Assembly: GCF_056712565.1 (NCBI RefSeq)
Contig: NZ_CM160072.1
DNA length: 64,000 nucleotides
Reading direction: 5' to 3' (one strand)
Made by a program: the position numbers. This document shows, piece by piece, positions 43,801 to 49,800 of the stretch (its first letter is position 1; the number at the start of each line of letters is the position of its first letter).

Positions 43801-46800
43801 TGTTCGATAGCCTGATTGAGTTTATCGAAGATAGCCTGATTACTCGCATCAATCTGATTCTGAAAGATGAGAAGGACACCACAGCGCGCCTGCGTCTGAT
43901 TGTGTTGCTGCTTCTCGGTTTTGGTGAGCGTAATCCTGGCCTGACCCGCATCCTCACTGGTCATGCACTAATGTTTGAACAGGATCGCCTGCAAGGGCGC
44001 ATCAACCAGCTATTCGAGCGTATTGAAGCGCAGTTGCGTCAGGTATTGCGTGAAAAGAGAATGCGTGAGGGCGAAGGCTACGCGACGGATGAAACCCTGC
44101 TGGCAAGCCAGATCCTGGCCTTCTGTGAAGGTATGCTGTCACGCTTTGTCCGCAGCGAGTTTAAATACCGCCCGACGGATGACTTTGACGCCCGCTGGCC
44201 GCTAATTGCTGCACAGTTGCAGTAATATGACGCCGGATGACTTTTCATCCGGCGAGTTTCTTTAAACGCCGAACTCTTCGCGATAGGCCTTAACCGCCGC
44301 CAGATGTTCCGCCATTTCTGGCTTCTCTTCCAGATAGGCAATCAGATCTTTCAAGGTGATGATAGAGATCACTTTGCAGTTGTAATCACGCTCAACTTCC
44401 TGAATTGCCGAAATCTCGCCGCGCCCCCGTTCCTGACGATCGAGCGAAATCAATACGCCAGCAAGCGTCGCGCCATTGGCCTGAATAATTTCCATCGACT
44501 CGCGAATCGCCGTTCCGGCGGTGATCACATCATCCACCAGCATTATGCGTCCTTGTAACGCGCTACCGACCAGATTGCCGCCTTCACCGTGGTCTTTTGC
44601 TTCTTTGCGGTTAAAGCAGTACGGCAGGTCCAGGTCATGATGCTCCGCCAGCGCCACGGCAGTTGTGGTGGCAATCGGGATCCCTTTGTAAGCAGGGCCA
44701 AACAGCAGATCGAACTCAATGCCGGAATCCACCAATGCTTCAGCGTAAAAACGGCCTAACAGTGCCAGATCGCGCCCGGTATTAAACAGCCCGGCGTTGA
44801 AGAAATAGGGGCTTTTGCGCCCGGATTTCAGCGTGAACTCGCCAAACTTTAACACCTGCTTGCTAAGCGCAAATTCAATAAACTGGCGCTGATATGGTTT
44901 CATGCCTTCGCTCCTCATCTTACTTTTCTACAGACAAAAAAAAGGCGACTCATCAGTCGCCTTAAAAATCAGTTTGCCAGCGCCGCCTTCTGCGTCGCTA
45001 CAATGGATTCGATTCCCCCTCGGGCCAGCGCCAACAAGGTGAGTAACTCTTCGTGGGTGAACGGTTCGCCTTCTGCCGTCCCCTGCACTTCAATGATACG
45101 CCCGTCTTCGGTCATCACTACGTTCATGTCGGTCTCTGCGGCAGAGTCTTCAACATATTCCAGATCGCAAACCGCTTCGCCGTTCACAATCCCGACAGAG
45201 ACCGCGGCTACCATCCCTTTCATTGGATTAGTTTTCAGCTTGCCGTTTTCCACCAGCTTCTGTAGCGCATCTGCCAGCGCCACGCAGGCACCCGTAATCG
45301 AAGCGGTACGCGTGCCACCATCAGCCTGAAGCACGTCGCAGTCCAGCGTAATGGTGAACTCACCCAGTGCTTTCAAATCTACTGCCGCGCGAAGAGCACG
45401 GGCGATCAGACGCTGGATTTCCATTGTGCGTCCACCCTGCTTACCTTTCGCCGCTTCACGCGCGTTACGGGTATGGGTAGAACGCGGCAGCATACCGTAC
45501 TCTGCGGTGATCCAGCCCTGGCCCTGACCTTTCAGGAAGCGCGGCACGCCTTCTTCAATAGAGGCGGTACACAACACTTTGGTATCGCCAAATTCGACCA
45601 GCACCGAGCCTTCTGCATGTTTTGTATAGTTACGAGTCAGGGTAACGGGACGCACCTGATTATTGCTACGGCCTGCTGGACGCATATTGAAATCTCCGGC
45701 TTGAAACAAATGTGGCTGCGCATTATACGGACTTCCGGCGGTTATTCCTATCCTGACAAGGCATCGATGGCTATAATCCTTCCACCTCTCCTTTTATAAA
45801 CAGGAACGTCTATGATCCGCAGTATGACCGCCTACGCCCGGCGTGAAATCAAGGGTGAATGGGGGAGCGCAACCTGGGAAATGCGCTCGGTAAACCAGCG
45901 TTATCTGGAAACTTACTTTCGTCTGCCGGAGCAGTTCCGTAGCCTTGAACCTGTCGTTCGCGAGCGTATTCGTTCTCGCCTGACGCGCGGTAAAGTGGAA
46001 TGTACCCTGCGCTATGAGCCAGATGTTAGCGCGCAAGGTGAGCTGATCCTCAACGAAAAACTGGCTAAACAGCTGGTAACTGCCGCGAACTGGGTAAAAA
46101 TGCAGAGCGACGAAGGAGAAATCAACCCGGTTGATATTCTACGCTGGCCGGGCGTGATGGCAGCCCAGGAGCAAGATCTCGACGCGATTGCAGCTGAAAT
46201 TCTCGCGGCGTTGGATGGCACCCTGGATGACTTTATCATCGCGCGCGAAACCGAAGGTCAGGCGCTGAAAGTGTTGATTGAGCAGCGTCTGGAAGGCGTC
46301 ACCGCCGAAGTGGTCAAAGTCCGCGCCCATATGCCGGAAATCCTGCAATGGCAGCGTGAGCGTCTGGTAGCGAAGCTGGAAGATGCTCAGGTGCAACTGG
46401 AAAACAACCGTCTGGAGCAGGAGTTGGTTCTGCTGGCACAACGAATTGACGTTGCCGAAGAACTGGACCGCCTCGAAGCGCATGTCAAAGAGACCTACAA
46501 CATTCTGAAGAAAAAAGAAGCGGTTGGCCGTCGTCTGGACTTTATGATGCAGGAGTTCAACCGCGAGTCGAACACTCTTGCTTCGAAATCTATCAATGCC
46601 GAAGTGACGAATTCTGCCATCGAGCTGAAAGTGTTGATTGAGCAGATGCGCGAGCAGATCCAGAATATCGAATAAGCTATCAGCAAAAATCACCAAGCAG
46701 CAAAAAACCATAAAGCCCGCGAAATGTCGGGCTTTTTTGTTATCATGAGCTATCATAACGACGCAACAAAGCGCACAATATGCGTGTACATAGAGGTGTA

Positions 46801-49800
46801 CATAATGACTTTCATGTACATTGCTTTATGTACACACCCATATTCGATATTCAGGTATTCGCAATGCCAAAACTCACAGATATGCAGATCCGCGCATGGA
46901 TAAAGGCGGGAGACAGATTTGATGGCAAGGCAGACGGCAACGGCCTTTATATTTGCTACCCCAAAAACTACACAGTCCCGTTCTGGCGATTCCGATATAA
47001 GCTCGCAGGAAAACAGCGGGCTATGGTTATCGGCTCTTACTCCGAACTGTCACTATCAAAAGCCAGAGAAATAGCAAAAGAGCTGTCAGCCAGAGTTGCT
47101 CTTGGCTATGACGTAGCAGCAGAAAAACAGGAACGAAAAGCTGAAGCACTGGCAAAAATGGAGGCTGAGAAAAACGCCATGCGCGTTTCAGATCTGGCCG
47201 CCGAATACTTCGAGCGACAGATACTTCCGAGATGGAAACATCCCGATATCCTTCGCCGGAGAATTGATAAGGATATTAACCCCTGCATTGGGCATATGAA
47301 GGTAGAGGACGTTAAGCCACGCCACATTGACGACATGTTGAAAGGTATCGTTGACCGAGGAGCACCAACGATAGCAACAGATGTATTACGCTGGACACGC
47401 CGTATCTTTGACTATGGGATAAAACGCCACGCTCTGGAGATAAACCCTTGTTCAGCGTTTGAAGTATCTGATGCTGGTGGTAAAGAGGTTTCCCGCGACC
47501 GTTGGCTAACTCGCGATGAGCTTATCAGGCTATTCGAGGCTATGCGCACCGCAAAAGGATTCAGCCGCCAGAACGAACTGACATTTAAGCTATTGCTGGC
47601 ACTATGCGTTCGTAAGATGGAGTTATGCGCCGCACGATGGGAAGAGTTTGATTTAGATGGTGCGGTATGGCATTTGCCGGAAGAACGCAGCAAAAACGGA
47701 GACCCTATTGATATACCTCTACCTTCTCCTGCCGTTGAATGGTTGAGAGAGCTACACACCTTTTCATGTAATAGCGCATGGGTGCTTCCAGCCAGGAAGA
47801 TGCAAAACAGAATGATCCCACATATTCAGGAAAGCACTTTACCCGTAGCACTGGCTAAGGTTCGCGCCGAAATGCCGGATGTGCCTAATTTCACGATTCA
47901 CGACTTCCGGCGTACCGCACGTACTCATTTAGCAGCATTGGGTGTTGATCCTGTCGTAGCGGAACGATGCCTCAATCATCGCATTAAGGGTGTGGAGGGG
48001 ATTTATAACCGCCATCAGTATTTTGATGAGCGTAAAGCTGCGCTGGCACAGTGGGCTGATCTGCTGGTGGCACTGGAAAGCGGGAAAGACTACAACGTAA
48101 CGCCATTCGATAAAGCCCGGAGGCAAATGTGAACAACATCTTGAGAAAATCGCCAATCGAACGGCTTTGTTCATCTGTATCGATTACCCCTCATGAAATG
48201 GCTGTGGCCTTGGCTGGCCTAAACCCATCTATGCGCATTAGCGATGTGCCTGAGGAAAATTTCGAATATGTCGATTTTGTCAGAACTCATCTTGCCAGAG
48301 CTATCAAGGTGTACAGAGGTGAAAAAACTAGTAAAGACGAGCCTTGCCATGCCCTTGATATTTTCTTAGCTTCTTACCCATTTATTGACACAAATACACC
48401 AGAAATAATTGTTCAGAAAATATCAGAAGCGATTGATGATTTGCGTGGCACCAAGGGCTGGGAAGAAAAAGCCCGAAACCTTGGAGGACTCCAGTTAGTA
48501 AACTACATCAAAGAAACCAACCGCAGCGGACGTGGGCAGCATAGAAAGCAGGATGAGGAAAACGGGACAATGAAAATGATGGGGTTGATAGTACATCTGC
48601 TGATAAAAAAATCAGGCTCATCTTCCTACATCCAAAATGGGAAACCTAATCGCACAGCTATATACCGTGACATAGAAACCTTAATCAAGGATGAAGGGAT
48701 ATCCCATAAAGGAATAGCAAAAGCCACATTCCTAGAAAAAATCTCACGGGCTTTATTAGCTGTCCACGATCTCGACTAATCACTTTTCACGCCCCTCCAA
48801 AGCAATGGCGGGGCATTACCTGTTTACCCATCTCCACCAGCATAGATAATTCTATGCCTAGCCATTGCTATATCTGTTCGGCTTAGTTCATCTGTAATCA
48901 CCCCATCTCTAAAAGATACGCCAGCTATCATTAGCCATTTTAAGCCATCATGAGCCATTATAAACCGACTCAACCAATTGAATAATAAAAGATAAAAGGA
49001 AATGTAAAAACATGATGAATGACGATGAAAGATATAACTCTTTGATAAAACAATGATTTTTTAAACTGGTAACTAATTGAAAATAAAGAAAATAATTATC
49101 CCACCTGCATTTGCAATCTTTCAGTGGATCGGTATTTTTTCAATAGATTTATAATTTCTTTCAATAGATTCTAGTCTTAATAGAAATACTGTATGGGCAA
49201 CCACTAAACTTTAAGTAACTTCATGAGCTATCAGAGAGGTTACTAGAGATATGACAGCACACAAGCCAGCATCATCAGCTATCCCAACAACTGGATACAT
49301 CCGTCGCTTTCGCATGCCGGAATTGCTAGGTGTTTCACTGCCTACTATTGATAGATGGGTTAAAAATGGCACTCTTCCACGCCCAGTGAAGCTAACAGAT
49401 AACGTGACTGCGTTTGATGCGGTGGAAATTAATAACTGGCTGGCAGAACGCCGAAACACATCAGCCTGATTAAATGACTACGGGGGATGACGTTCAACCC
49501 CACCAGCAAACAAAAGTAACTTAATTTAATAGCAGGTGTTTTTATGAAACTGCGAAAAACGCCCGTACAGGGGCAGGGCTTCGTTCGGCCTGAAACCAGC
49601 ATGAGCGATATTCTGGTTCGCCACAAAGCGGAGTCGCGCATTGATTCCCGCTTATTTGCTGAGCGTATTGGCATAAAGCACAAAAACCTTTATTCGCTCA
49701 TTCAGAAGCACAAAACCGGATTGCGTGAACTGGGCATCCTTCCGTTTCAAACGGAGCGATTAAAAACCCGTCAAAACGGGGAGCGTGAACATAAGTTTGC

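What the first reader, a model, noticed from the sequence alone, without database searches (positions are those of the whole stretch)
46743..49233. Exact 13-mer TCATGAGCTATCA at the island's left junction and again just upstream of alpA
The same 13-mer occurs at 46743-46755 (first bases after the yicC terminator) and at 49221-49233 (18 bp upstream of the alpA ATG). A looser copy (CATCATGAGCCATTATAA) is at about 48940. A 13-bp exact repeat is unlikely by chance in this span; it could be a recombination core or arm-type or regulator binding site.
Basis: seen in the sequence. Interest (0 to 1): 0.45.

Follow-up and report, generated by a model that had tools for sequence, protein, structure and literature searches.

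The report
Phased AlpA-type sites, not att core
The repeated 13 bases are two neighbouring copies of a short TATCA-type signal set one DNA turn apart; the signal recurs beside the integrase gene and in front of the alpA regulator of a 20-kb phage-satellite island inserted in the end of yicC, and it most likely marks where the island's excision/regulator protein binds, which is an ordinary arrangement for such elements.

Summary
The exact 13-mer is present at 46743-46755 and 49221-49233, and the looser copy is at 48948-48960. The island's left junction is the last 21 bp of yicC (46655-46675), which recurs at the right end, 20,125 bp away and outside the window. The "yicC terminator" and the first 13-mer lie 68 bp inside the island.

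An exact 13-mer repeat is not rare here: 109 occur in the window and about 38 are expected by chance.

What is real is a 10-bp-phased array of pentamers ending in CA. It lies between the att core and four GTGTAC repeats, which are the likely integrase arm sites. The array is conserved in 57 related islands from many genera (lag-10 signal z=33). The 13-mer is TCA-tgagc-TATCA, that is, two adjacent array units plus a variable spacer.

The alpA copy is the same two-unit template. It sits in the loop of a covarying hairpin in the alpA leader that pairs with the ribosome-binding site.

Best reading: binding sites for the AlpA (Vis/Xis-like) directionality factor and autoregulator, as in P4 Vis or 186 Apl. 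No binding was tested. It is not the core and not an Int arm-type site. This is a new member of a known kind.

The parts
46655..46675 (+). attL identity block (core): the last 21 bp of yicC including its stop codon, CAGATCCAGAATATCGAATAA. This is the true left junction.
   Evidence: A direct repeat (19/21) lies 20,125 bp away at L001 40781-40801, and the K-12 empty-site alignment breaks exactly here. The pattern of the two mismatches places the crossover in the first 11 bp (inference).
46676..46702 (+). Core-proximal cluster of three phased pentamers: gcTATCA-gcaaaAATCA-ccaagCAGCA. Their CA dinucleotides are at 46681, 46691 and 46701.
   Evidence: Read from the sequence. The equivalent three units are conserved, with lineage-specific sequence, in related arms.
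46712..46741 (+). Island-borne replacement terminator for yicC: a bidirectional hairpin plus T tract.
   Evidence: The terminator scan finds it on both strands. It is absent from the K-12 empty site, and the native terminator now lies beyond attR. The stem is kept through compensatory changes across lineages.
46741..46775 (+). Post-terminator array of four pentamers at exact 10-bp spacing: TATCA-tgagc-TATCA-taacg-ACGCA-acaaa-GCGCA. 13-mer copy 1 (46743-46755) runs from the TCA of unit 1 to the end of unit 2.
   Evidence: In 46 arms of constant geometry the CA pairs are kept in 38-45 of 46, while 13-mer positions 4-8 vary. The lag-10 self-match count is 248 against 25.9 +/- 6.7 expected (z=33) in 57 arms.
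46784..46833 (+). Four (G/A)TGTAC repeats (46784, 46796, 46814, 46828). The first two form a 12-bp-period doublet. These are the candidate Int arm-type sites.
   Evidence: Invariant in all relatives. A matching doublet lies in the right arm at L001 40697-40720 (D9) and in a second lineage, again 60 nt from the core. The geometry matches the HE-PICI doubled motif.
46864..48132 (+). Tyrosine integrase gene (422 aa).
   Evidence: Pfam Arm-DNA-bind_3, Phage_int_M and Phage_integrase; PHROG 1.
48923..48962 (+). Four-unit, 10-bp-phased array AGCTATCATT / AGCCATTTTA / AGCCATCATG / AGCCATTATA.
   Evidence: Phased arrays with other unit sequences occupy the same place in L003, L013 and L053.
49139..49187 (+). 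TTCAATAGATT x2 plus TTAATAGAAAT repeats in the alpA promoter region. This is a separate operator-like set.
   Evidence: Conserved upstream of alpA in L003, L013, L018 and L053.
49215..49243 (+). alpA leader hairpin. The 5' arm GUAACUUC pairs with GAGGUUAC, which includes the Shine-Dalgarno GAGG. 13-mer copy 2 (49221-49233) is the end of the 5' arm plus the loop. It holds two pentamers, CTTCA and TATCA, with CA at 49222 and 49232.
   Evidence: MFE -14.6 kcal/mol, z=-3.8. In 16 lineages 89.7% of cells are paired against 26-48% in the slid controls, 3 pairs show compensatory changes, and the covariation score is reached by 0 of 500 shuffles.
49251..49469 (+). alpA (72 aa), the only conserved small DNA-binding gene next to int.
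   Evidence: Pfam Phage_AlpA 6.9e-6 and HTH_17 6.2e-5; PHROG 66 'excisionase and transcriptional regulator'. A homologue was found in 48 of the fetched related loci.

Best explanation
The window carries the left 17 kb of a 20.1-kb PICI-type phage satellite. Its gene order is int, orf216, alpA, a Rha/Ant/BRO zone, a primase zone and a late zone. It is integrated in the 3' end of yicC.

Its int-proximal att arm has a fixed architecture: core, three pentamers, a replacement terminator, four pentamers, then four GTGTAC repeats. The pentamers end in CA, are direct repeats and sit exactly one helical turn apart. That is the signature of sites for a small winged-helix recombination directionality factor that oligomerises head-to-tail and bends the arm.

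The 13-mer is two adjacent units with their spacer ([TA]TCA-tgagc-TATCA). The same two-unit template lies in the alpA leader, and a degenerate four-unit array lies 290 bp upstream of alpA.

The proposed mechanism is as follows. AlpA (Phage_AlpA/HTH_17, the P4 Vis homologue) binds the arm array to direct Int-mediated excision, and possibly to control the int promoter. It binds the alpA-proximal units to regulate its own expression.

Shown here: the junction, the phasing, the conservation pattern, the hairpin and the protein families. Inferred: that the array binds a protein, that the protein is AlpA, and the direction of regulation. The identity over all 13 bases is a lineage-specific accident of the spacer (about 1 in 32, given the shared template).
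For: The junction and island extent were mapped against the empty site.

Ten-bp periodicity of the arm: lag 10 z=33 and lag 20 z=11 in 57 arms from Enterobacterales, Xenorhabdus, Aeromonas, Chromobacterium and Methylococcales. The distance from the stop codon to the first GTGTAC is 108-110 bp in 46 of the 57.

Position-wise conservation: T1 C2 A3, T9, C12 A13, C22 A23 and GCGCA are conserved, while 13-mer positions 4-8 are variable.

The pentamer sequence is lineage-specific and is the same in both arm clusters of a lineage (TATCA, TCTCA, TGTCA, TCGCA, ACTCC).

Link to AlpA rather than Int. Islands with Int only 62-64% identical but AlpA 85-90% identical keep TATCA units. The clade with Int 79% identical but AlpA 38% identical has ACTCC units, and its recognition helix reads TLWN where every other class has T-x-x-R.

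The leader keeps two CA-ended pentamers exactly 10 columns apart in all 16 lineages, and the dinucleotide between them varies freely (tg, ac, cc, gc).

Co-variation in L003: arm unit 1 (AATTAAT) matches its upstream array (TTATTAAT, TTATAAAT).

Literature. RDF operators are direct repeats about one turn apart, and dual-purpose RDFs bind both att and a promoter: Apl (PMC7498355) and RdfS, which binds attP and its own promoter (PMC11963761). P4 Vis is needed for excision and represses Pint, and P4 int lies next to attL (PMC7286903, citing Cali 2004 and Piazzolla 2006). PICI AlpA autoregulates and is required for, or drives, excision (PMC6092414, PMC11773190).
Against: No binding data exist for this AlpA.

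The AlpA-pentamer association rests on few independent evolutionary events and is confounded by phylogeny. Xenorhabdus and Dickeya islands have very different AlpA proteins but still carry TNTCA-like units, so a more conserved binder is possible.

In the TCTCA (type F) class no arm-type units appear in front of alpA, and in the ACTCC (type E) class only single near-matches do. The att-plus-own-gene pairing is therefore not universal.

The alpA copy lies downstream of any plausible promoter, in a structured mRNA leader. That fits repression or an RNA-level role better than the positive autoregulation reported for PICI AlpA.

A different repeat set (TTCAATAGATT) sits where an activator site would be expected.

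TATCA-N5-TATCA with up to 1 mismatch is not enriched across the 44-kb locus as a whole: 2 hits against 2.6 expected, though both hits are in the arm.
Confidence: 0.5

Rival explanations
1. Two unrelated functional elements share a short motif by coincidence. The arm array binds a protein at the DNA level. The alpA copy acts only as RNA, as the loop of an anti-Shine-Dalgarno hairpin that controls alpA translation or mRNA stability.
For: The hairpin is strongly supported: z=-3.8, compensatory changes, and G.U pairs that switch position as the SD changes between GAGG and GGAG. The long arm/leader match is absent from most lineages. Classes E and F lack clear arm-type units at alpA.
Against: The loop keeps CTATCA, the arm unit, at a fixed place in lineages that carry TATCA arms. 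It also keeps a second CA-ended pentamer exactly 10 nt upstream in all 16 lineages. A rough estimate is that well under 1% of conserved loop 6-mers would equal the arm unit by chance. A related array lies 290 bp upstream.
Confidence: 0.22
2. The phased pentamers are bound by a protein other than AlpA. Candidates are a second specificity of Int, the unknown orf216 product, or a host nucleoid protein that bends the arm.
For: TNTCA/GCGCA units persist across very different AlpA classes. The fourth unit plus its flank (AAAGCGCATGATTA) is nearly invariant and loosely resembles an IHF site on the other strand (the resemblance is judged from memory of the consensus). orf216 has no known function.
Against: The unit sequence changes between lineages, which a conserved host factor would not require. 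orf2 is replaced by unrelated genes in lineages that keep identical arms. The Int N-terminal arm domain is conserved together with GTGTAC, not with the pentamers.
Confidence: 0.13
3. A trans-acting antisense RNA is made from the minus strand of the arm and ends at the bidirectional terminator. It pairs with the alpA leader loop over the 13 nt, possibly helped by the island's ProQ/FinO protein.
For: The terminator scores on both strands. The island encodes a ProQ/FinO-family protein. P4-type elements use RNA immunity (PMC10111431). The match is perfect over 13 nt in this lineage.
Against: No promoter-like site was found on the minus strand of the arm. In the predicted fold the anti-13-mer lies mostly in a stem, and that fold is not exceptional (z=-1.8). 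Complementarity shrinks to 6-9 nt in other lineages. There is no Rfam match.
Confidence: 0.04
4. The 13-mer is an Int arm-type site or the recombination core.
For: It lies near int in the att region.
Against: The core was mapped elsewhere. The motif is absent from the right arm. GTGTAC doublets satisfy the both-arms criterion.
Confidence: 0.03
5. Pure chance, with no function at either place.
For: About 38 exact 13-mer repeats are expected by chance in the window and 109 are seen.
Against: Both copies fall in conserved, structured non-coding elements. The arm units are conserved across genera and the leader units across 16 lineages.
Confidence: 0.04

Closest known systems
Bacteriophage P4 Vis (AlpA-family RDF) sites at attP/Pint and at its own late promoter
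   Same: A small HTH protein is encoded downstream of a P4-type integrase. int lies next to attL. The RDF acts in the int-proximal arm and also regulates transcription (PMC7286903, PMC7498355).
   Different: This element is a PICI-type satellite, not P4-like (no sid/psu/delta genes were seen). It targets a protein gene rather than a tRNA gene. Binding was not tested.
Coliphage 186 Apl and P2 Cox operators
   Same: Five to seven direct repeats at 10-11 bp spacing, both at att and at a regulatory region. Recognition is weak and degenerate, with cooperative binding and bending (PMC7498355).
   Different: The protein fold family is different (Apl/Cox versus Phage_AlpA/HTH_17). Here the second site set lies in an mRNA leader hairpin rather than between face-to-face promoters.
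Gram-negative PICIs (EcCICFT073, EcCIMP1) and their AlpA master regulator
   Same: The int-alpA integration zone, Bro-N zone, primase zone and late zone match (PMC10111431). AlpA autoregulates and is required for excision (PMC6092414, PMC11773190). The size is about 20 kb.
   Different: The integration site is the 3' end of yicC, not a tRNA gene or fis. The AlpA operators of the characterised PICIs are not defined, so no site-level comparison is possible.
Doubled attP motif of helper-embedded PICIs (tgTGTATTGCantgTGTATTGCa at -81 and +132)
   Same: The GTGTACATA doublets here have the same 12-bp period, orientation and distances from the core centre, about -82 and +130.
   Different: The motif sequence differs. 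This comparison concerns the neighbouring GTGTAC repeats, not the 13-mer.
Pseudomonas aeruginosa AlpA antiterminator and its ABE
   Same: The name only; both proteins use an HTH.
   Different: That protein is a larger, Q-like factor that binds a single GGGACG element between -35 and -10 as one molecule (PMC9371919). It is not a model for the 72-aa protein here.

Membership tests
att core (crossover/identity block) | The same sequence is present at both ends of the integrated element and once in the empty site. | tested here: not met
   The 13-mer has no copy with up to 3 mismatches in the right arm; the nearest is about 1.5 kb inside the island. The 21-bp yicC end fulfils this criterion instead.
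Integrase arm-type sites | Repeats in both the P and P' arms at fixed distances from the core, invariant together with the Int arm-binding domain. | tested here: not met
   The pentamers and the 13-mer occur only in the int-proximal arm. The GTGTAC doublets meet the criterion. Int carries Arm-DNA-bind_3.
RDF (Xis/Vis/Apl-type) operator array | Several direct repeats spaced about one helical turn apart. | tested here: met
   CA at 46744, 46754, 46764 and 46774, and at 46681, 46691 and 46701. Family-wide lag-10 z=33.
RDF (Xis/Vis/Apl-type) operator array | Located in one arm, between the core and the Int arm-type sites. | tested here: met
   The order is core, pentamers, terminator, pentamers, GTGTAC. 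None is present in the right arm.
RDF (Xis/Vis/Apl-type) operator array | A cognate small wHTH RDF gene is encoded in the element. | tested here: met
   alpA: Phage_AlpA/HTH_17 and PHROG 66 'excisionase and transcriptional regulator'.
RDF (Xis/Vis/Apl-type) operator array | The site sequence co-varies with the RDF. | tested here: inconclusive
   The ACTCC arms go with the TLWN-helix AlpA, and TATCA is kept in the subclade with 62-64% Int identity that has a type-A AlpA. However, TNTCA units persist with the divergent Xenorhabdus and Dickeya AlpA proteins.
RDF (Xis/Vis/Apl-type) operator array | The protein binds and bends the sites, and is required for excision. | not testable with these tools
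   Needs EMSA or footprinting and excision assays. Only analogues have been tested (PMC6092414, PMC11773190).
Gram-negative PICI (phage satellite) | int plus alpA plus a primase-replication gene, unidirectional, about 10-20 kb, with flanking att repeats and no full phage morphogenesis set. | tested here: met
   Annotation and size; primase PHROG 1139; att repeats. Helper-dependent induction was not tested.
Translational-control leader hairpin (anti-SD) | A conserved stem that pairs with the SD, supported by covariation. | tested here: met
   RNA hairpin versus DNA palindrome is not resolved; the G.U pairs favour RNA.

The most novel reading that the evidence does not exclude
One short signal is read at two levels. 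AlpA, or an island-encoded ProQ/FinO-assisted RNA made from the att arm, recognises the same 13 nt as DNA in the excision arm and as the loop of the SD-sequestering hairpin of the alpA mRNA. This would physically couple the state of the att site (integrated or excised) to translation of the master regulator.
Probability: 0.06. Interest if true: 0.6.

Novelty: new member of a known kind. Interest (0 to 1): 0.3.

Why it matters
The work corrects the island boundary: the target is the yicC 3' end, and the island brings its own terminator. It gives a concrete, testable operator model for AlpA, the master regulator of Gram-negative PICIs, whose DNA sites were not defined in any paper I found. It also shows that a fixed att-arm geometry (3 + 4 phased units, then arm-site doublets at about -82 and +130) is shared by yicC-targeting satellites across several orders of Gammaproteobacteria and some Betaproteobacteria. 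The principle itself, an RDF binding phased direct repeats at att and at a promoter, is textbook.

Tried and rejected
1. 13-mer at the right end: none found, and none in the right arm of a second lineage.

2. Promoter scan of the arm on both strands: nothing convincing for Pint or for an antisense RNA.

3. Rfam scan of 46000-64000 at E<=1: only a chance CRISPR-DR hit.

4. Longest-common-substring test of arm against leader in 40 loci: significant only in L001 and L003, so the idea of a conserved 13-mer was dropped.

5. TATCA-N5-TATCA scan of the 44-kb locus: not enriched overall.

6. Search for arm-type units upstream of alpA in the TCTCA class: none; GAAACTTT repeats are there instead.

7. 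Attempt to uncouple AlpA from Int using IMG/VR relatives. One element (L104) pairs an 83%-identical AlpA with a 26%-identical Int, but its contig ends at int, so no arm could be read.

8. E. coli-wide search with alpA plus its leader: 353 genomes match. Judging by record positions and, these appear to be the same yicC islands, so this gave no independent context.

9. orf216 as a DNA-binding candidate: no Pfam domain, and a PHROG of unknown function.

10. P. aeruginosa AlpA/ABE as a model: rejected, because it is a different, Q-like protein.

11. The Cali et al. 2004 paper on P4 Vis is not held in the library, so the P4 site sequences could not be compared.

12. PADLOC on the large late-zone ORFs: no hit.

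
Full report
**Observation.** TCATGAGCTATCA is present exactly at 46743-46755 and 49221-49233 on the + strand. A two-mismatch copy lies at 48948-48960, and another at 49272-49284 inside alpA. An exact 13-mer repeat is not unusual on its own. The window holds 109 maximal direct repeats of 13 nt or more, against 38 +/- 6 expected under a second-order Markov model; the excess comes from REP-like elements and a repetitive gene. Only when the comparison is restricted, after the fact, to the two intergenic stretches concerned does the match become uncommon (0.34% of simulations).

**Where the island really starts.** The window is identical to E. coli ExPEC XM over the 4-kb stretch compared. 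The full locus (L001; window coordinate = L001 coordinate + 25999) shows an island of about 20 kb between yicC and dinD that runs past the end of the window.
- A 21-bp direct repeat (19/21 identical) flanks it: CAGATCCAGAATATCGAATAA at window 46655-46675, and CAGATCCAGAACATTGAATAA at L001 40781-40801, 20,125 bp apart.
- Alignment with the empty K-12 site breaks exactly at the yicC stop codon on the left and just before the repeat on the right.
- The island is therefore inserted in the last codons of yicC. The native terminator now lies beyond attR.
- Copy 1 of the 13-mer lies 68 bp inside the island, in the int-proximal arm. It is neither at the junction nor in the core.
- No copy with up to 3 mismatches occurs in the right arm.

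**Anatomy of the arm.** After the stop codon the sequence reads gcTATCA-gcaaaAATCA-ccaagCAGCA, then the terminator, then TATCA-tgagc-TATCA-taacg-ACGCA-acaaa-GCGCA, then four (G/A)TGTAC repeats, then int. The CA dinucleotides fall at 46681/91/701 and at 46744/54/64/74, that is, exactly 10 bp apart. The 13-mer runs from the TCA of one unit to the end of the next.

**Relatives.**
- Related islands occur in 554 of 5,426 complete E. coli genomes; ten diverged examples were read.
- A further 67 loci came from other genera: Enterobacter, Klebsiella, Pantoea, Erwinia, Dickeya, Pectobacterium, Xenorhabdus, Aeromonas, Chromobacterium and Methylococcales.
- Most sit in the yicC 3' end and share this architecture.
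- In 57 arms, 4-mer self-matches at lag 10 number 248 against 25.9 +/- 6.7 expected (z=33); at lag 20, z=11. The arms are related by descent, so z overstates independence. However, the unit sequence differs between lineages (TATCA, TCTCA, TGTCA, TCGCA/TTGCA, ACTCC) while the phase and the 108-110-bp arm length are kept.
- Position by position in 46 arms, T1 C2 A3, T9, C12 A13, C22 A23 and GCGCA are conserved, and positions 4-8 of the 13-mer (TGAGC) are variable.

**Arm-type sites are something else.**
- The GTGTAC repeats are invariant in all relatives.
- A GTGTACATAagggGTGTACATAat doublet recurs in the right arm (D9).
- The two doublet centres lie about 82 bp upstream and about 130 bp downstream of the core centre.
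- In a second lineage the right-arm doublet is again 60 nt from the core.
- This is the geometry reported for the doubled TGTATTGC motif of helper-embedded PICI attP sites, 81 +/- 2 and 132 +/- 2 (PMC10111431).
- Int carries an Arm-DNA-bind_3 domain.

**The alpA copy.**
- Copy 2 lies in a hairpin in which GUAACUUC pairs with GAGGUUAC, the latter including the Shine-Dalgarno sequence. The 13-mer forms the end of the 5' arm and the loop (-14.6 kcal/mol, z=-3.8).
- The hairpin is kept in 16 lineages: 89.7% of cells are paired against 26-48% when the partner is slid, three pairs show compensatory changes, and 0 of 500 shuffles reach the covariation score.
- In all 16 lineages two CA-ended pentamers lie exactly 10 columns apart in the loop region.
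- In AlpA type-A leaders the pattern is TTCA-NN-AGCTATCA, with NN = tg, ac, cc or gc.
- Arm and leader therefore share the template TCA-N2-AGC-TATCA. Identity over all 13 bases needs only the extra coincidence of the spacer. This agrees with the finding that long arm/leader matches are limited to L001 (13 nt) and L003 (11 nt) among 40 loci.
- The 'looser copy' is part of a four-unit, 10-bp-phased array at 48923-48962. Phased arrays with other unit sequences occupy the same place in L003, L013 and L053.

**Who binds?** AlpA is a Phage_AlpA/HTH_17 protein (PHROG 66 'excisionase and transcriptional regulator'). It is the only small DNA-binding gene conserved next to int.

Evidence from the literature:
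- RDF operators are direct repeats one turn apart, and RDFs often also bind a promoter: Apl (PMC7498355) and RdfS, which binds attP and its own promoter (PMC11963761).
- P4 Vis is required for excision and represses Pint, and P4 int lies next to attL (PMC7286903).
- PICI AlpA autoregulates. Its overexpression causes int-dependent excision (PMC6092414), and it is required for excision of EcCIMP1 (PMC11773190).

Evidence from these loci:
- Islands whose Int is only 62-64% identical, and which target another gene, keep a type-A AlpA and keep TATCA units.
- The clade whose Int is 79% identical but whose AlpA is 38% identical has ACTCC units. Its recognition helix reads TLWN where all other classes have T-x-x-R.
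- This favours AlpA over Int, but it rests on few independent events.

Evidence against, or limiting, the AlpA link:
- Xenorhabdus and Dickeya islands keep TNTCA-like units with quite different AlpA proteins.
- In the TCTCA class no arm-type units were found upstream of alpA.
- A separate repeat set (TTCAATAGATT) sits in the alpA promoter region.

**Rivals.** Several alternatives are kept open.
- The leader copy may act only as RNA.
- The binder may be another protein.
- An antisense RNA from the arm is conceivable, because the terminator is bidirectional and the island encodes a ProQ/FinO protein. However, no promoter was found, the fold is not favourable, and the complementarity is not conserved.
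- The core and arm-type readings are rejected.

**Verdict.** The 13-mer is a fragment of a conserved, phased array of protein-binding type in the int-proximal att arm of a yicC-targeting PICI-type satellite. The same two-unit template is embedded in the alpA leader hairpin. The most likely binder is AlpA acting as RDF and autoregulator, a known kind of arrangement, so novelty and interest are modest.

Noticed in passing
window 55258-55390; L001 40157-40315 (right end, outside the window): Two clusters of GCGGGTTA / TAACCCGC iterons, direct and inverted. One lies just downstream of the primase gene and one near the island's right end. They resemble an ori/crr pair as in P4.
   Followed up: partly
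window 57470-64000 and onward (L001 31471-38818): Three consecutive large late-zone ORFs hit PHROG virion proteins: phrog_992 (head/internal virion protein with a transglycosylase region), phrog_1145 and phrog_684. None hits PADLOC. They look like captured podovirus-type internal virion or ejection genes.
   Followed up: partly
window 49139-49187: TTCAATAGATT x2 plus TTAATAGAAAT repeats about 21 and 17 bp apart upstream of the alpA hairpin. They are conserved in L003, L013, L018 and L053. They form a second operator-like set, possibly the site of the helper-phage inducer or of AlpA activation.
   Followed up: partly
window 46712-46741: The island supplies a replacement, bidirectional terminator for yicC inside its att arm. 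The stem is kept by compensatory changes in all lineages.
   Followed up: yes
L123 12090-12110 (attR of strain 90-3040, O157-type island): The attR core remnant reads CAGATTCAATATTGAGTAA. It is 2 bp shorter than the 21-bp block, with the loss in the presumed crossover segment. This recalls the 'att damage' described for PICIs and may immobilise that island.
   Followed up: no
L053 4671-5003; L101 1249-1581: An Int subclade (62-64% identical) is inserted at the 3' end of a different gene (...KRLIKHIKKSK*). It keeps the TAA|GCTATCAG junction, the terminator and the phased units, so target specificity changed while the arm stayed the same.
   Followed up: partly
window 46264-46285 and 46624-46645: A 22-nt exact direct repeat, GCTGAAAGTGTTGATTGAGCAG, lies inside yicC, 360 nt apart.
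   Followed up: no
L001 40131-40886 (minus strand): The RefSeq hypothetical CDS CXG97_RS29025 spans the right-end iterons, the GTGTAC doublet and the attR core. It is probably a spurious gene call.
   Followed up: no
window 5900-9000; 541-716, 9487-9575, 14015-14050: Many 13-52-nt repeats at lags of 234 and 300 nt indicate a highly repetitive gene. REP-like palindromic repeats occur at three intergenic places. Together these account for most of the excess of 13-mer repeats in the window.
   Followed up: no
window 49272-49284: A fourth near-copy, TCATCAGCTATCC, lies in alpA codons for SSAIP. The AIP motif is conserved in the protein, so coding constraint probably explains it.
   Followed up: partly
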